A DNA stretch of 50,386 nt from Candidatus Omnitrophota bacterium (GCA_903889135.1 CAISWF010000161.1:1-50386), one strand, 5' to 3'. Counted from the first letter of the stretch, positions 3,899 through 6,799 are shown. Program-made: numbers and translations. The notes: generated by a model not told the origin, from the letters alone.

Positions 3899-6799
3899 GT
3901 GATGAAATATTGGGCTTTTAAAAAGAGACCGGGAATAGCTTTACTGTTGACGATAGGCATCTTGGGCCTGATATCGCTCATAGGGATAAGCTTTGCCCTG
4001 AATATGCTCCTTACGCGAAAGGAAGCGGCCAATTTCATGAATTCCGCGCGGGCCCGCTATGTCGCCGAGGCGGGGATAAAAAGGGCGATAATGGATATCC
4101 GCGCGCAGGCCGCCTCATCTTCCTATCCCGATCTCAAGACCTATATCAACGGTTATGTCGCCGCTAACGGGACGAATGCAGCGTTCGGCGGAGGGACTTA
4201 TACCCTCGCTATAACCTCGGAAGAAAATAAGGTAAACATCAATACCTTCGATGAGACGGACGCAAGCCAGGTAAATATCCTAAAAACATTTCTCACAGAC
4301 CAGCAGGTCGCGAACATAATAGATTACAGGGATGCGGATTCGACGGACACCGTAATAAACGGGACGTCGGGGAATATAGAGGGTACCGCGCAGTGCAAGA
4401 ACAGACTTTTCGATTCAATAAACGAGATAAGGGCCGCGACGGGAATAGACCAGAACACTTTTGCCAACAATAAGGACAAGATCACCGTATATAAGCCCAT
4501 TATAAGAGGGGGGCTGCTCGGGAAATACTACAAGAATATTACGGGCATATCGCCTAATGTAGCCATAGACAAGAGCAGTTTCGCGAAAAAGGTTGTCGAG
4601 CTCGGCCCTGTGTACCAGACTCCCGATGACCAGCCCCTCCCGGGCACGGATGGCGACTCGGGAGATGCCTGGGCCGAGACCCATGATGCCGAATTCGCGG
4701 GAGGCAGTTCCCTGGCAGCGCCGGGCGATTACGGATTGAACACATTCGGCGTAATATGGACCGGCTACCTGGAGATATTGCAGTCTGAAATAAACACGCC
4801 GATCGATTTCTGGATAGCGAGCGATGACGGCGCGCGCTTCTATATCATTGACGGGGCTGTCGAACAGAAAGTCTGCGACATCTGGACCGATACAGGCGCC
4901 TCGAACTATCCATGGGAGAGGACGGCTCACGGGACGTTTACGTTCACGCGGCCCGGCTGGTACAGGATACGCCTGGAGTATTACGACCAGGGCCACTATA
5001 ATTCCGTGCAATTGAAGTGGAAGGACCCCTCGTTCGGCCCGGCCGCGGTCATACCCGCGGAGCGCCTTGGTTACGATCCTCCGACAGAGGTCCAGGGAGG
5101 ATATAACCATTCCGGAATTTATACGATAACCGCAACCGCCTCAGTCGCGGTGGGCGGGCAGGCAGCGGCGACGAGACAGATGACCGCGGTGGCCGAGGTA
5201 TTCGACACCTGGACGCAGACCACGAAAGAAGAATTTTACGCCGCGTGGTTTAACCGGCAGGGCAACTTCGCCGACGGCGAGGTCTTTAACGTGAACTGGC
5301 TGGACAGCTGTCCGACGGATGAAGACTTATGGGATGCGGGGACTTCTAAGATGCACTGGGAAGAGAATTATGCGAAGATCCCGGACTCCGTGAAGCTGGG
5401 CTACTGGGATAATTTCGATGAGGATCCCGCCTTTTCAGCCGTCATGATGAAAGGGTACGCGTGGAACAGGGGGTGGTGGGGGACATATCCCACCGGGAGC
5501 GGCACTTTAAATATAAGTTACCAGGATTTCCAAAATAGCGGGGGAAGCCAGGGTAATGAGTTATATCTTCATAACAATACATTTGAGGCCAAGCATTTTG
5601 AGTTAAACAGGTATTATTTCAAGCCCAACACGCAGAGCGTCTTTGTCAGGGCTTATACAGAGGAGCCGGCGCCTTCAACCCGCATAGCATGGAGGGGATC
5701 GGGCACAAAATATGCAGGACCTCTGCCGCCGCCGACCGCGCCTTACGCAGGAGCGGGCGGGAAATGGGTTTATTTTTACGACCAGAACGGCAACGGGTTT
5801 GTGGATGCCGGCGAACAGCTCTTCCCGGTTTACGACGCCAGGAACGGCAACGCCCCGGTATATATTTATAATCCGACCCCGCAGTATAGCTGGGACTTGC
5901 AGAATCCCCCGGCTCCCGGTTCCTATGATTATTGGCAGCCGGAGGCGCCTCCTTGCGGGTGCTGGCTTTTCGCCAAAGGTTCTGCCGATGATACGTCTCC
6001 GGGGTGGGTCGGCGGCGCAACAATTATACCGAACGGTTATAAGACGTTATTGACCGACGGGCACGGAAACCTCCCTGTAATAACTGAGCCGCTCCCGCTC
6101 TGGCCGTTCGGCGATACCAACGAGATCCGGCTTTATCAAAACGCTTTTACATACATTCAGTTTAATTATCAACCGAAAAAGGTCATTTCTATGATCGGTT
6201 GGGATAACGGCGCCAGCGCCGCGCAGTACTCCGGCTGGATAAACGGGGCTTTAGGGAATAATCTGGCGGTCTCGGCGGCTGGTTATGCCTCTAACCCGAT
6301 ATTTAAGTTTGTGGCCAATAACCAATATCTGGGCGCGGATTGGTCTACTTTCGACAGGGGACAGCATATAATCGGGCCTGCGGACTGGCCGTATGCCGGC
6401 GCGGTAACGACGATGGATACATATTGGGATGATATACGCTGCATGGCGGCGAGCGGGTATATCGCTTCCGCGCCTTTTTATGCCGGCTCATCTCCGGTAA
6501 GATGGGGGACGATCTCGTGGACGGGGCAACTGCCCGCGAATACCGCTATCGCCGTTTATGACAGGACCGCGGCCGATAAGAGCAGTATTCCGACGACCGA
6601 TTCGGGCTGGACCGCCGCGGCGAGCACCGGAGCGGCGATAGGGGGCACCTCTCCATGGCTGCAATATAAGGCCGTGCTTTCCACGACGGCTATAGACAGG
6701 ACAAATTATCAGGCGAGCTCAAGGACGCCTGTCCTGCAGGATGTCACCGTTACATATTTTCCCGTTATACAGATCAAGTATTGGAGGCAAGGGTCATGA
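3899..6799 (+). CDS. Giant GspK-like pseudopilin with inserted PA14 domain and long C-terminal extension
   Basis: The N-terminus KKRPG|IALLLTIGILGLISLIGISF lacks Glu+5, as in GspK. It is followed by SARARYVAEAGIKRA, IIDYRDADSTD and a helix-hairpin-helix-like FDSINEIRAATGIDQNTF, all GspK hallmarks. PA14-like block at ~4510-5040: GLLGKYYKN...FGVIWTGYLE...FWIASDDGARFYIDG...GWYRIRLEYYDQGHYNSVQLKW. Start is GTG 3899 or ATG 3902; GGAG lies at ~3884. Confidence 0.75.
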   Translation: MMKYWAFKKRPGIALLLTIGILGLISLIGISFALNMLLTRKEAANFMNSARARYVAEAGIKRAIMDIRAQAASSSYPDLKTYINGYVAANGTNAAFGGGTYTLAITSEENKVNINTFDETDASQVNILKTFLTDQQVANIIDYRDADSTDTVINGTSGNIEGTAQCKNRLFDSINEIRAATGIDQNTFANNKDKITVYKPIIRGGLLGKYYKNITGISPNVAIDKSSFAKKVVELGPVYQTPDDQPLPGTDGDSGDAWAETHDAEFAGGSSLAAPGDYGLNTFGVIWTGYLEILQSEINTPIDFWIASDDGARFYIIDGAVEQKVCDIWTDTGASNYPWERTAHGTFTFTRPGWYRIRLEYYDQGHYNSVQLKWKDPSFGPAAVIPAERLGYDPPTEVQGGYNHSGIYTITATASVAVGGQAAATRQMTAVAEVFDTWTQTTKEEFYAAWFNRQGNFADGEVFNVNWLDSCPTDEDLWDAGTSKMHWEENYAKIPDSVKLGYWDNFDEDPAFSAVMMKGYAWNRGWWGTYPTGSGTLNISYQDFQNSGGSQGNELYLHNNTFEAKHFELNRYYFKPNTQSVFVRAYTEEPAPSTRIAWRGSGTKYAGPLPPPTAPYAGAGGKWVYFYDQNGNGFVDAGEQLFPVYDARNGNAPVYIYNPTPQYSWDLQNPPAPGSYDYWQPEAPPCGCWLFAKGSADDTSPGWVGGATIIPNGYKTLLTDGHGNLPVITEPLPLWPFGDTNEIRLYQNAFTYIQFNYQPKKVISMIGWDNGASAAQYSGWINGALGNNLAVSAAGYASNPIFKFVANNQYLGADWSTFDRGQHIIGPADWPYAGAVTTMDTYWDDIRCMAASGYIASAPFYAGSSPVRWGTISWTGQLPANTAIAVYDRTAADKSSIPTTDSGWTAAASTGAAIGGTSPWLQYKAVLSTTAIDRTNYQASSRTPVLQDVTVTYFPVIQIKYWRQGS

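What the first reader, a model, noticed from the sequence alone, without database searches (positions are those of the whole stretch)
3899..6799. 966-aa GspK-like protein with an internal PA14 domain and a ~550-aa aromatic-rich extension
Seen: the first ~200 aa carry GspK hallmarks: a Glu5-less hydrophobic N-terminus, IIDYRDADSTD and an HhH-like FDSINEIRAATGIDQNTF. A PA14-like block (GLLGKYYKN ... RIRLEYYDQGHYNSVQLKWKD, ~4510-5040) then interrupts it. After this, a GspK-like closing strand returns (IYTITATASVAVGGQAAATRQMTAVAEV). The following ~550 aa are very rich in W/Y/G/N/P, and I recognise no family for them. They end in a beta-sandwich-looking tail (ISWTGQLPANTAIAVYDRT...WLQYKAVLST...TPVLQDVTVTYFP). 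Established: GspK is normally ~330 aa and caps the pseudopilus, and PA14 domains are carbohydrate/ligand-binding modules of adhesins and toxins. Inference: this is a pilus-tip lectin or adhesin about three times normal size, with a functional analogy to PilY1-type tip proteins built on a different scaffold.
Basis: partly seen in the sequence, partly recalled or inferred. Interest (0 to 1): 0.7.

Follow-up and report, generated by a model that had tools for sequence, protein, structure and literature searches.

The report
Giant lectin-bearing pilus-tip pilin (GspK-like)
This gene encodes a three-times-oversized version of the protein that caps bacterial type IV pili or secretion pseudopili; it carries sugar-binding-type domains and belongs to a large uncharacterised family in Omnitrophota bacteria, so it extends the known idea of pilins with grafted adhesion modules.

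Summary
Window 3899/3902-6799 (+) is one intact ORF of 965-966 aa. About 45 full-length homologues from independent assemblies share its architecture, so it is not a chimera or a frameshift.

**Anatomy** (residues numbered from the ATG at 3902):
- **aa 1-201:** homologous to the first ~208 aa of GspK. It has a prepilin-type leader without Glu5, a long alpha1 helix, two strands, the first helical subdomain and the DYRDxD motif.
- **aa 202-395:** a PA14 domain above the Pfam threshold, with an intact DcisD/Tyr/CBL2 calcium-sugar signature. It sits where GspK has its second helical subdomain.
- **aa 396-440:** three predicted strands, read as the rest of the pilin sheet.
- **aa 441-835:** a divergent ConA/GH16-like jelly roll. 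The evidence for this fold is weak.
- **aa 836-965:** a beta-sandwich that also occurs in giant Planctomycetes surface proteins.

The gene is fourth in an H-I-J-K minor-pilin cluster and is translationally coupled to an exported partner gene.

**Best reading:** a K-type cap pilin of a type IV filament that presents lectin-like modules at the tip. Binding itself is untested.

Modular pilins, including pilin+PA14, are already described (PMC8179133), so this is a new variant of a known kind. Single Omnitrophota genomes hold up to 8 paralogues.

The parts
2201..2665 (+). H-type minor pilin gene. The listed ORF starts at TTG 2147, but the likely start is ATG 2201. N-terminus RGVGG|YSLIEM, with Glu5.
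   Evidence: Pfam GspH at E 8.8e-4 and N_methyl. NCBIfam ComGD and GspH, below cut-off. A perfect sigma-70-like promoter at 2163-2190 lies inside the longer ORF.
2665..3060 (+). I-type minor pilin gene (GPKG|FTLIE, with Glu5).
   Evidence: Pfam N_methyl 27.4 bits, above the cut-off. NCBIfam PilV, GspI and Verru_Chthon cassette B, all below cut-off. An I-like gene lies upstream of the J and K genes in about 26 related loci.
3020..3739 (+). J-type minor pilin gene (RRKG|LTLIE, with Glu5).
   Evidence: Pfam N_methyl 28.1 bits; T2SSJ at E 0.032. NCBIfam gspJ at E 1.2e-4 over profile positions 1-180 of 192; Verru_Chthon cassette C. A J-like gene lies immediately upstream of the K-like gene in about 35 loci.
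3789..3817 (+). Promoter-like site (TTGACA, 17 nt, TACACT) in the 160-nt J-K spacer. K and its partner gene may have their own promoter.
   Evidence: Consensus scan, 10 of 12 matches. This is a consensus match only, not evidence of function.
3902..4504 (+). K head, aa 1-201: leader MKYWAFKKRPG|IALLL without Glu5, alpha1 helix aa 10-70, strands 93-106, and the first helical (HhH-like) subdomain with D141-Y-R-D144-x-D146.
   Evidence: hhalign to GspK at 99.3%, E 1.2e-20, and 72.8%. NCBIfam GspK at E 8.5e-7. AF2 secondary structure. The DYRDxD motif is kept in 40-42 of 43 sequences.
4505..5086 (+). PA14 beta-sandwich, aa 202-395, replacing GspK's second helical subdomain. DcisD = D308-D309 (nt 4823-4828). 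CBL2 = DQGHY, aa 362-366 (nt 4985-4999).
   Evidence: PF07691 at 31.4 bits, above the cut-off of 24. PDB profile hit to RsgI3 at E 1e-21. Foldseek hits to RsgI3, MpIBP, Epa and Flo PA14 domains at probability 1.00. The motif mapping uses PMC6852018 and column counts.
5087..5221 (+). Three beta-strands, aa 396-440 (IYTITATASV...TRQMTAVAEVFDTW), read as the rest of the pilin sheet.
   Evidence: AF2 strands 406-417, 420-432 and 435-439. The module is conserved in PA14-bearing and PA14-less paralogues. There is no sequence similarity to the GspK C-terminus.
5222..6406 (+). All-beta module, aa 441-835: a divergent ConA/GH16-like jelly roll with large, variable insertions. Conserved motifs: NVxWLDSCP, KLGYWDNFDED, FELN and YWDNIR.
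   Evidence: AF2 model of the C-terminus, pLDDT 86, pTM 0.87. Foldseek hits to GH16 glucanases, TtX122, calreticulin and BoNT HcN at E 5e-3 to 1e-2, probability 0.9-0.99, TM up to 0.50. The region aa 590-800 varies between paralogues.
6407..6799 (+). Terminal beta-sandwich, aa 836-965, plus the stop codon. Motifs: WGTISW, WIQYKAxL and TPVLxDVTxTY.
   Evidence: Profile search of 1.84 billion representatives: 870 hits. The sandwich occurs at the C-terminus of K-like proteins and as repeats in 1200-5142-aa proteins. These include Pirellulales and Gemmataceae Ig-like proteins. The sequence match is shown.
6796..7794 (+). Translationally coupled partner gene (an ATGA overlap with the K stop codon). 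It encodes a 332-aa exported protein with a ~70-aa N-terminal domain that recurs directly downstream of K-like genes.
   Evidence: Signal peptide read from the translation. NCBIfam Lepto_7_Nterm at E 3.6e-10, below cut-off. The gene is conserved after K in L001 and L008-L014. The same N-terminal domain is found directly after 28 of 76 K-like ORFs.

Best explanation
This is a K-type (GspK/PilX-class) minor pilin of a type IV filament machine in an Omnitrophota bacterium, enlarged into a multi-module tip protein.

**Shown**
- The N-terminal 200 aa are homologous to GspK and keep the K-specific features: a prepilin-type leader ending in Gly, no Glu5, and the DYxDxD motif.
- The gene follows H-, I- and J-type minor pilin genes.
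- A PA14 domain with an intact DcisD-Tyr-CBL2 calcium/carbohydrate signature lies where canonical GspK has its second helical subdomain.
- The C-terminus adds two all-beta modules.
- The whole chain is predicted as one compact, confident model.

**Inferred**
- A prepilin peptidase cuts after Gly11.
- The protein joins I and J, and then H, through its alpha1 helix to form the priming complex on which the major pilin polymerises. K is therefore the apical subunit. This is the established HIJK model, summarised in PMC9934059.
- The PA14, jelly-roll and sandwich modules, all attached to the distal face of the pilin fold, form a cap of about 80 kDa at the filament tip.
- That cap binds a glycan or polysaccharide ligand in a calcium-dependent way.
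- Extension, and retraction by PilT, would then tether the very small Omnitrophota cell to a host or prey cell surface or to a polysaccharide particle.
- Different K paralogues (up to 8 per genome, with or without PA14, with variable CBL2 loops and jelly-roll inserts) would give tips of different specificity.
- The coupled exported partner protein may ride on, or help fold, the K cap.
For: **K-type pilin**
- GspK homology.
- Leader without Glu5 in this protein and in all paralogues examined. H, I and J all have Glu5.
- H-I-J-K gene order in the window and in related loci. Two of those loci (L002, L005) carry GspE(MshEN)-GspF-GspG upstream and a PilM/PilN fusion downstream.
- PA14-less long paralogues carry PF03934 T2SSK and PilX_N, and one is named PulK by its source.

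**Lectin modules**
- PA14.
- DcisD (D308, D309), Tyr360/361 and the polar first residue of CBL2 (D362) align with the calcium-binding residues of RsgI3 PA14A. They are conserved, while CBL2 positions 363-366 vary (PMC6852018).
- ConA/GH16-like fold hits for aa 441-835.
- The terminal sandwich, together with the last strand of the jelly roll, is homologous to a 'GH16-like jelly roll + sandwich' unit in extracellular Ig-rich giant proteins.

**Compact model:** pLDDT 85.2, pTM 0.83 for all 965 aa.

**Retraction:** a PilT-family ATPase above its curated cut-off lies at window 48759-49853.

**Carbohydrate context in relatives**
- Sugar ABC transporter genes inside the pilus operon (L005).
- Beta-helix proteins after K (L002, L005).
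- GH26 and CBM genes around the PA14-less P0047.

**Precedent**
- Modular pilins with lectin, vWA and PA14 modules: PMC8179133.
- The ConA-like lectin pilin PilC binds glycans: PMC9934059.
Against: - No binding, processing, localisation or expression data exist.
- The NCBIfam GspK score is far below the equivalog cut-off (28.8 against 130).
- The PF03934 subdomain is missing.
- The strands after PA14 show no sequence similarity to the GspK C-terminus. I could not inspect model coordinates, so continuity of the pilin sheet is unverified.
- The ConA-like assignment rests on weak Foldseek scores (E about 5e-3, TM at most 0.5). There is no Pfam or PDB sequence hit.
- No major pilin, platform protein or secretin gene lies next to the cluster in this window.
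- A cap of about 105 kDa must pass the outer-membrane channel, if there is one.
- PA14 domains also occur in enzymes and sensors, so PA14 alone does not prove adhesion.
Confidence: 0.68

Rival explanations
1. It is the cap of a non-exposed T2SS pseudopilus. The PA14 and jelly-roll modules stay in the periplasm and recognise glycosylated or carbohydrate-active cargo, or the secretin, and push it out. They would not act as an external adhesin.
For: - The head is homologous to T2SS GspK.
- Related loci have a T2SSG-type major pseudopilin, GspE and GspF.
- CAZyme-like and beta-helix genes lie next to some paralogues.
Against: - A PilT-family retraction ATPase is in the window, and a PilT-sized T2SSE gene is in the L005 operon.
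- Related loci carry PilM/PilN fusions instead of GspL/GspM.
- No GspC, GspL or GspM was seen.
- Omnitrophota systems of this type are classed as type-4a pili in PMC10066038.
- A cap three times the normal size seems hard to accommodate inside a secretin vestibule. This last point is inference.
Confidence: 0.15
2. It is a tip-delivered enzyme. The aa 441-835 jelly roll would be an active GH16-like or lyase-like glycanase, targeted by PA14, that cuts host wall or matrix polysaccharide at the point of pilus contact.
For: - The best Foldseek hits include GH16 beta-1,3-glucanases (4pq9, probability 0.99), GH16 porphyranase and xyloglucanase, PL7 and heparinase I.
- E567 and N569 are conserved on one strand, and there is a conserved acidic WDNFDED loop.
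- Related giant proteins give partial PF00722 hits.
- Omnitrophota are proposed predators or parasites (PMC10066038).
Against: - The window protein has no GH16 or other CAZyme Pfam hit.
- The GH16 ExDxxE catalytic strand is not present. FELN has one acid, and WDNFDED is predicted as loop and helix.
- Lectins with the same fold (calreticulin, BoNT HcN, TtX122) score equally well.
- TM-scores are low.
Confidence: 0.1
3. It is not a pilin at all. It would be a type II membrane-anchored surface protein whose uncleaved N-terminal helix merely descends from a GspK ancestor, so it would function independently of any filament.
For: - Some paralogues (P0047 in L003/L004) stand alone among CAZyme genes, without H, I or J neighbours.
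- Pfam N_methyl is not detected in K.
- The window lacks the assembly genes next to the cluster.
Against: - The K-specific leader (K/R-G|VALI...) is conserved in all paralogues.
- The H-I-J-K order is tight, with overlapping or adjacent genes, in most loci.
- Canonical GspK proteins also lack Glu5. The absence of an N_methyl hit may have the same cause, which I did not test.
Confidence: 0.05
4. It is an assembly chimera or a frameshift fusion of a GspK gene with PA14 and other genes.
For: Only the unusual length (966 aa against about 330 aa).
Against: - 45 homologues with end-to-end alignment at 30-87% identity, from ENA, NCBI, JGI and Logan assemblies.
- 58 loci in GTDB species genomes.
- The same module order everywhere.
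- No composition break.
- One compact AF2 model with pTM 0.83.
Confidence: 0.01

Closest known systems
GspK, the T2SS minor pseudopilin that caps the GspI-J-K tip (ETEC structure 3CI0, recalled from memory; NCBIfam NF037980; Pfam PF21687 and PF03934)
   Same: - Prepilin-type leader without Glu5.
- Long alpha1 helix.
- First helical (HhH-like) subdomain inserted in the pilin sheet.
- DYxDxD acidic motif.
- Fourth position in an H-I-J-K gene cluster.
- Sequence homology over GspK residues 3-208.
   Different: - 965 aa against about 330 aa.
- The second helical subdomain (PF03934) is replaced by PA14.
- About 525 aa of extra beta modules are added after the pilin fold.
- The score is far below the equivalog cut-off.
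- The associated machine has PilT and PilM/N rather than GspC/L/M.
Modular type IV pilins: S. sanguinis PilB (vWA) and PilC (ConA-like lectin), and the InterPro class 'pilin + PA14' (Raynaud 2021, PMC8179133; Shahin 2023, PMC9934059)
   Same: - A functional module of a kind not specific to pili is grafted on a pilin, for display at the filament tip.
- Lectin-type modules are used, namely PA14 and a ConA-like fold.
- The bulk of the protein restricts it to the tip.
   Different: - The carrier here is the K subunit itself, which is already modular.
- One module is inserted inside the fold, at the alpha-domain site, and two more are appended, giving three extra modules.
- No N_methyl hit was found, so the IPR012902-based survey has probably missed it.
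- There are many paralogues per genome.
ComZ of Thermus thermophilus (a minor pilin with a beta-solenoid inserted into the pilin beta-sheet), as cited in PMC8179133
   Same: A large all-beta module is inserted within, not after, the pilin beta-sheet of a tip minor pilin.
   Different: - The inserted fold differs: beta-solenoid against PA14.
- The proposed ligand is DNA.
- ComZ has no C-terminal jelly roll or sandwich.
PilY1/PilC, the non-pilin tip adhesin of type-4a pili
   Same: Expected role: a large adhesin of about 100 kDa displayed at the pilus tip on the minor-pilin complex, with variable N-terminal modules.
   Different: - There is no PilY1 beta-propeller: no PF05567/IPR008707-type hit.
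- Here the adhesive modules are covalently part of the K pilin rather than a separate docked protein.
PA14 lectin modules of RsgI3/RsgI4 anti-sigma factors, MpIBP, and the yeast Epa and Flo adhesins
   Same: The PA14 beta-sandwich with DcisD on strand 5, the stabilising Tyr and a CBL2 loop. RsgI3 is the closest by sequence (E 1e-21).
   Different: - A single PA14 embedded in a pilin.
- The CBL2 sequence (DQGHY) is unlike the pectin type (QHVRA) or the xylan type (NNTGN), so the ligand cannot be read off.

Membership tests
GspK / K-type minor (pseudo)pilin | Class III (prepilin) leader ending in Gly, a hydrophobic alpha1N, and no Glu at +5 | tested here: met
   The N-terminus is KKRPG|IALLLTIGILGL, and +5 is Leu. 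The same pattern is found in all paralogues. It aligns to QRG|VALLIVL of E. coli GspK.
GspK / K-type minor (pseudo)pilin | Sequence homology to GspK above the curated family threshold | tested here: not met
   NF037980 scores 28.8 bits against a cut-off of 130, covering profile positions 3-206 of 307 only. Homology of the N-terminal 200 aa is nevertheless strong in the profile-profile comparison (99.3%, E 1.2e-20).
GspK / K-type minor (pseudo)pilin | Complete alpha-domain (both helical subdomains, PF21687 and PF03934) inserted in the pilin sheet | tested here: not met
   The first subdomain and the DYRDxD motif are present. PF03934 is absent in PA14-bearing members and present only in PA14-less ones. 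PA14 begins where the second GspK repeat begins.
GspK / K-type minor (pseudo)pilin | Pilin beta-sheet completed after the insertion | tested here: inconclusive
   AF2 predicts strands 406-439 with high confidence, but there is no sequence similarity to the GspK C-terminus. Coordinates could not be inspected.
GspK / K-type minor (pseudo)pilin | Gene located after gspH/I/J-type genes | tested here: met
   In the window, the genes at 2201-3739 are H-, I- and J-like. The same order is found in L001, L002 and L005 and, by tblastn, in about 35 loci.
GspK / K-type minor (pseudo)pilin | Forms the apical subunit of an I-J-K complex | not testable with these tools
   This needs multimer modelling or biochemistry.
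PA14 domain (PF07691), calcium-dependent lectin subtype | Score above the Pfam gathering threshold, and the PA14 fold | tested here: met
   31.4 bits against a cut-off of 24. Foldseek probability 1.00 to RsgI3, MpIBP, Epa1 and Flo5.
PA14 domain (PF07691), calcium-dependent lectin subtype | DcisD motif, stabilising Tyr, and a polar calcium ligand at the start of CBL2 | tested here: met
   D308-D309, Y360/Y361 and D362 align with the DD, YY and Q130 of RsgI3 PA14A (residue roles from PMC6852018). Conservation: D308 in 30, D309 in 36 and position 362 (D or N) in 37 of the 43 aligned sequences, of which 40 gave a PA14 hit. The cis peptide itself cannot be tested.
PA14 domain (PF07691), calcium-dependent lectin subtype | Binds a carbohydrate | not testable with these tools
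   This needs a glycan array or polysaccharide pull-down, with and without calcium.
Modular pilin (sensu Raynaud et al. 2021) | An N-terminal pilin module plus at least one domain not specific to type IV filament biology | tested here: met
   K head, PA14, and a sandwich shared with non-pilin giant proteins. The IPR012902/PF07963 motif used in that survey is not detected.
Concanavalin A-like lectin/glucanase fold (aa 441-835) | Jelly-roll fold match to members of the superfamily | tested here: inconclusive
   Foldseek E 5e-3 to 1e-2, probability 0.90-0.99, TM 0.4-0.5 normalised to the target. There is no sequence-level hit in Pfam or PDB. Relatives of the terminal unit give partial PF00722 matches.
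GH16 glycoside hydrolase | ExDxxE catalytic strand and a PF00722 match | tested here: not met
   The window protein has no PF00722 hit. No ExDxxE is present, only FELN and a WDNFDED loop.
PilY1/PilC tip adhesin | C-terminal PilY1-type beta-propeller | tested here: not met
   No such Pfam hit at E up to 1. The C-terminal model matches jelly rolls, not propellers.
Verru_Chthon cassette (TIGR02596-02600) of PVC bacteria | Proteins B and C, and the large protein D, above family cut-offs | tested here: not met
   The I and J genes hit cassette B and C only weakly (27 and 43 bits against cut-offs of 51 and 256). The K protein gives no cassette D hit at E up to 1.

The most novel reading that the evidence does not exclude
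Omnitrophota carry a kit of interchangeable pilus tips.
- There are up to eight giant K-type cap pilins per small genome, several in tandem behind a single I-J pair.
- Each combines a conserved K head with different lectin-like modules: PA14 or a helical subdomain, a variable CBL2 loop, and variable jelly-roll inserts.
- Many are paired with an exported partner whose conserved ~70-aa N-terminal domain would dock on the K cap and whose C-terminus varies (Ig-like/helical, or TPR plus beta-helix).

Choice of the K/partner pair would set the host, prey or substrate specificity of the pilus, much as receptor-binding proteins do for phage tails. This would be the first case in which the K subunit, rather than PilY1 or a separate minor pilin, is the diversified specificity determinant.
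Probability: 0.3. Interest if true: 0.7.

Novelty: new variant of a known kind. Interest (0 to 1): 0.5.

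Why it matters
**How filament tips gain function.** Minor pilins at the filament tip decide what type IV filaments stick to or secrete. [quoted passage not shown] This family shows that the K cap itself can be rebuilt into a three-module, lectin-type head. 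It also shows that the alpha-domain insertion site accepts a complete domain swap.

**Biology of Omnitrophota.** These are uncultivated, ultra-small bacteria suspected of being parasites or predators (PMC10066038). A diversified set of pilus-tip lectins gives concrete, clonable candidates for the molecules that recognise hosts or polysaccharide particles.

**Annotation.** These genes are currently labelled only 'PA14 domain-containing protein' or 'hypothetical'. Surveys that rely on the N-methylation motif have probably missed them.

Tried and rejected
- **PDB sequence searches.** phmmer of the whole protein found no hit at E up to 1. The profile of the C-terminal 526 aa found no hit at E up to 10.
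- **Foldseek on the whole model.** The top 50 rows were mostly PA14 structures, with no GspK chain among them, so the GspK fold could not be checked by structure. I used profile-profile comparison against E. coli K-12 GspK instead.
- **Closing strands.** hhalign of strands 396-440 against GspK gave E 0.38, no better than the reversed control at 0.75. Similarity of the closing strands to GspK is therefore unproven.
- **Chimera or frameshift.** Rejected.
- **GH16 enzyme reading.** Considered and put at low probability, because there is no catalytic motif and no PF00722 hit.
- **Verru_Chthon cassette membership.** Considered because of weak hits of the I and J genes. Not met.
- **PilY1 membership.** Not met.
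- **P0046 middle region.** By eye it looked like a LamG domain, but no Laminin_G_3 hit appeared in the family scan. I dropped the claim.
- **Literature.** Two searches timed out. Later searches found no paper on GspK-PA14 proteins or on this family.
- **Unused resources.** The third Foldseek job (viral library) and two homologue searches were judged uninformative for the question.

Full report

Yes. Window 3899..6799 (+) is a single open frame of 966 codons from GTG 3899. The database protein P0001 starts at ATG 3902 and has 965 aa, and a GGAG lies 14 nt upstream of that ATG. I number residues from this ATG.

The composition of aa 440-965 is W 4.8, Y 6.8, G 9.7, N 6.5 and P 7.4%, which is clearly enriched in those residues.

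The gene is not an assembly artefact:
- 47 database proteins match it, and most align end to end at 30-87% identity. They come from ENA, NCBI, JGI and Logan assemblies.
- A scan of one genome per GTDB species found 58 loci.
- A local module-HMM scan finds the same order of modules everywhere.
- GC content shows no break inside the gene.

**2. Anatomy**

An AlphaFold2 model built on a 43-sequence alignment is confident for the whole chain (mean pLDDT 85.2, pTM 0.83). This implies that the domains pack in a defined way.

Head, aa 1-201:
- The leader is MKYWAFKKRPG|IALLLTIGILGL. The residue at +5 is Leu, not Glu.
- The three upstream pilins read G|YSLIE, G|FTLIE and G|LTLIE, so all three have Glu5.
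- Then come a helix at aa 10-70, strands at 93-106, and helices at 121-193 that contain D141-Y-R-D144-x-D146 and the HhH-like segment.
- NCBIfam T2SS_GspK matches aa 12-197 to profile positions 3-206 of 307, at E 8.5e-7. The score of 28.8 bits is far below the equivalog cut-off of 130.
- hhalign of the family against E. coli K-12 GspK (fetched) gives 72.8% probability.
- After removing the PA14 columns and adding a second canonical-length GspK (L063), the probability is 99.3% at E 1.2e-20, with query 9-202 aligned to GspK 3-208.
- DYRDxD aligns with DYIDVD of GspK and is kept in 40-42 of 43 family members.

PA14, aa 202-395:
- Pfam PF07691 scores 31.4 bits against a cut-off of 24, and 40 of 43 members match.
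- The family profile hits the RsgI3 PA14 dyad 6qe7 at E 1e-21.
- Foldseek on the whole model returns RsgI3/RsgI4, the MpIBP PA14 domain (TM 0.67 to the target), Epa1, Flo5 and Cea1, all at probability 1.00.
- PA14 begins exactly where canonical GspK starts its second helical repeat, near residue 209.
- PA14-less paralogues keep that repeat as PF03934, and PA14-bearing ones lack it. PA14 therefore replaces the second helical subdomain. It is not simply inserted into an otherwise complete GspK.

Lectin signature of the PA14 domain:
- Grinberg et al. (PMC6852018) describe a DcisD motif on strand 5, a stabilising Tyr, and a polar first residue of calcium-binding loop 2 (CBL2). The five CBL2 residues set specificity.
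- Through the HMM alignment to RsgI3 PA14A, these map to D308-D309, Y360/Y361 and D362, with CBL2 = DQGHY.
- Across the 43-sequence alignment (40 members with a PA14 hit), D308 is kept in 30, D309 in 36, and position 362 is D or N in 37, while positions 363-366 vary.
- The calcium/sugar-binding signature is therefore intact, and the specificity loop has diversified.

Strands, aa 396-440:
- Three strands (406-417, 420-432, 435-439) follow the PA14 domain.
- This block is conserved in all paralogues.
- It has no detectable similarity to the GspK C-terminus: E 0.38, against 0.75 for a reversed control.
- That it completes the pilin sheet is plausible, but it rests on the model's secondary structure alone.

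C-terminus, aa 441-965:
- A separate model is confident (pLDDT 86.3, pTM 0.87).
- Foldseek gives only weak matches (E 5e-3 to 1e-2, probability 0.90-0.99, TM 0.4-0.5 to the target), and all are ConA-like jelly rolls. They include GH16 beta-1,3-glucanases (4pq9, 4w65, 5dxd), the TtX122 domains, the calreticulin lectin domain, botulinum toxin HcN, PL7 and heparinase I.
- There is no sequence hit in Pfam, NCBIfam or PDB.
- BLAST among homologues shows that aa 440-590 and 800-965 are conserved, and that aa 590-800 is variable.

Where else the C-terminus occurs:
- A profile of the C-terminal region was searched against 1.84 billion representatives and found 870 proteins.
- The whole region occurs only in K-like proteins of 650-1080 aa.
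- The last ~130 aa also occur, often as several copies, in proteins of 1200-5142 aa.
- Those I scanned carry Big_5, cadherin-like and partial GH16 matches. Two are named as Pirellulales and Gemmataceae proteins.
- The sequences show an evident shared unit. The Planctomycetes form is VDWMRMTPY...NWG.V.W...GT.I...VR...W...G...RY.QYRA.L.T...TP.L. The window protein has YWDDIRCMAASGY...RWGTISW...WLQYKAVLST...TPVLQDVTVTY.
- The tail is thus a 'jelly-roll end + sandwich' unit that PVC bacteria also use in extracellular giant proteins.

**3. Context**

The window starts inside a 23S rRNA gene (1-1917), followed by a 5S rRNA gene (1984-2100). A terminator-like hairpin lies at 2106-2141 and a perfect TTGACA-16-TATAAT promoter-like site at 2163-2190.

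The genes that follow are:
- an H-like pilin gene (likely start ATG 2201),
- an I-like gene (2665-3060),
- a J-like gene (3020-3739),
- a 160-nt spacer with a 10/12 promoter-like site,
- the K gene,
- an ORF at 6796-7794 whose ATG overlaps the K stop codon (ATGA),
- then EF-G with its own promoter-like site, YebC and RuvCAB.

The rest of the window is housekeeping. The exceptions are a 383-aa GspE/PilB-like ATPase without N-terminal domains (45390-46538) and a PilT-family ATPase above its cut-off (48759-49853).

Related loci:
- The 66%-identical homologue has the same H-I-J-K-partner-EF-G synteny next to an rRNA gap.
- Homologues at 30-37% identity sit in full operons: [PilT-sized ATPase]-GspE(MshEN)-GspF-GspG-(H)-I-J-K-beta-helix protein-...-PilM/PilN fusion. 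In L005 an Amuc_1100-like gene follows.
- By tblastn, a J-like gene directly precedes the K-like gene in about 35 loci, an I-like gene lies upstream in about 26, and an H-like gene in about 20.

**4. The family is large and specific to Omnitrophota**

Nearly all 58 loci come from Omnitrophota MAGs. Some are labelled 'uncultured Planctomycetia', and a few carry other or generic labels.

Single genomes hold many paralogues. There are 8 K-like genes in JBAZJG01 (L008 x2, L027 x3, L032, L036, L050) and 8 in CAZYUB01. Each of these genomes has two PA14-bearing copies, and some copies lie in tandem behind one I-J pair. All keep the K/R-G|VALI leader without Glu5.

The partner gene recurs too. 28 of 76 K-like ORFs in the held loci are directly followed by an exported protein that shares the ~70-aa N-terminal domain of window 6796-7794. 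The C-termini of these partners vary and include the TPR plus beta-helix protein of L005.

**5. Mechanism**

What is shown: homology of the head to GspK, the K-specific leader, the K position in the operon, a PA14 domain with an intact lectin signature, and extra all-beta modules shared with extracellular proteins.

What is inferred from the established HIJK model (K caps the complex because it is bulky and lacks Glu5; the complex primes assembly and stays at the tip; PMC9934059):
- The protein is cleaved after Gly11.
- It nucleates the filament together with I, J and H.
- It displays a cap of about 80 kDa, made of the PA14, jelly-roll and sandwich modules, at the filament tip.
- The cap binds a glycan in a calcium-dependent way.

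PilT in the same genome suggests a retractile pilus. Seymour et al. report type-4a pili in most Omnitrophota and propose that they mediate attachment to host cells (PMC10066038).

The ligand cannot be named. The CBL2 sequence DQGHY matches neither the pectin-type nor the xylan-type loop. Carbohydrate-related neighbours in some loci (a sugar ABC transporter, beta-helix proteins, GH26 and CBM genes) fit polysaccharide binding as well as cell-surface binding.

**6. Rivals**

- A periplasmic T2SS cap that recognises cargo: about 0.15.
- A tip-delivered GH16-like enzyme: about 0.10. The catalytic motif is absent.
- A filament-independent anchored surface protein: about 0.05.
- An assembly chimera: refuted.

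**7. Comparison with what is known**

The protein is a GspK homologue but not an equivalog. It fails the curated score and lacks the PF03934 subdomain.

It fits the definition of a modular pilin. Raynaud et al. list pilin + PA14 (IPR011658) among the 15 most common modular architectures. They also note that GspK (an alpha-domain) and ComZ (a beta-solenoid) carry modules inserted within the sheet (PMC8179133). S. sanguinis PilC is a ConA-like lectin pilin that binds glycans (PMC9934059).

What is new here:
- the K subunit as the carrier,
- replacement of half of its alpha-domain by PA14,
- two further appended modules,
- expansion of the family to as many as 8 copies per genome,
- the recurrent partner gene.

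No paper found describes this family. Public annotation calls these proteins 'PA14 domain-containing protein' or 'hypothetical protein'. No PF07963 N_methyl hit was found, so motif-based surveys probably miss them.

**8. Verdict**

This is a new variant of a known kind, with moderate interest of 0.5. It is a solid, uncharacterised and lineage-expanded family of giant cap pilins with lectin modules. Its function remains inferred, and the general concept is already published.

Noticed in passing
window 6796-7794 (+); also L005 12970-14448, L027 14259-15470 and 18211-18870, L017 14342-15535: An exported 332-aa protein is translationally coupled to the K gene through an ATGA overlap. Its ~70-aa N-terminal domain (a weak NCBIfam Lepto_7_Nterm match) recurs directly downstream of 28 of 76 K-like genes, with variable C-termini that include a TPR plus beta-helix protein. 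It may be a tip partner or a chaperone of the K cap.
   Followed up: partly
L008, L027, L032, L036, L050 (one genome, JBAZJG01); L013, L017, L038, L051 (CAZYUB01): Up to 8 long K-type pilin genes occur in a single Omnitrophota genome, and several lie in tandem behind one I-J pair. Each of these genomes has two PA14-bearing copies.
   Followed up: partly
window 1-2200: The contig starts inside a 23S rRNA gene (1-1917, cut at the 5' end), followed by a 5S rRNA gene (1984-2100). A 16-bp terminator-like hairpin lies at 2106-2141, and a perfect extended sigma-70-like promoter (TTGACA, 16 nt, TATAAT) lies at 2163-2190. That promoter falls inside the mechanically called TTG-start ORF 2147-2665, so the H pilin probably starts at ATG 2201. 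The orthologous loci also abut contig ends, consistent with the same rRNA neighbourhood.
   Followed up: partly
P0055, P0058, P0059, P0073, P0128 (database proteins of 1208-5142 aa): The terminal beta-sandwich of the K protein, together with the last strand of a GH16-like jelly roll, is a repeated unit in giant Ig-rich proteins. Two of them are named Pirellulales and Gemmataceae proteins. No Pfam or NCBIfam model covers this sandwich.
   Followed up: partly
L025 11347-16695: A 1782-aa protein with three PA14 domains is encoded directly downstream of a PA14-bearing K gene.
   Followed up: no
L005 3854-7291 and 16336-17100: Sugar ABC transporter genes (SBP_bac_1 plus two permeases) sit between gspF and gspG inside the pilus operon. 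An Amuc_1100-family gene follows the PilM/PilN fusion.
   Followed up: no
L003/L004 (P0047, 717 aa): A PA14-less long K-like gene stands alone, with no H, I or J genes nearby. Its neighbours are GH26, CBM9, CBM11, CBM30 and PEP-CTERM genes and a GntR/periplasmic-binding regulator.
   Followed up: no
window 45390-49853: A 383-aa GspE/PilB-like ATPase lacks the usual N-terminal domains (407 bits to GspE, below the cut-off). It is followed by two tRNA genes (46634-46808), a CT398-like zinc-ribbon protein, RNase P RNA (47991-48346) and a PilT-family ATPase (48759-49853, above the cut-off).
   Followed up: partly
window 2665-3739: The I- and J-like genes give weak hits to the Verru_Chthon cassette proteins B and C (TIGR02598, TIGR02599). 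This hints at a PVC-wide relationship between these minor-pilin cassettes.
   Followed up: partly
window 34626-35579 (+): A 317-aa ORF between a CvpA-like gene and dnaG has no Pfam or NCBIfam match.
   Followed up: no
window 4415-5110 (-): A 231-aa antisense ORF lies wholly inside the PA14-coding part of the K gene. It was not examined further and is probably a chance ORF.
   Followed up: no
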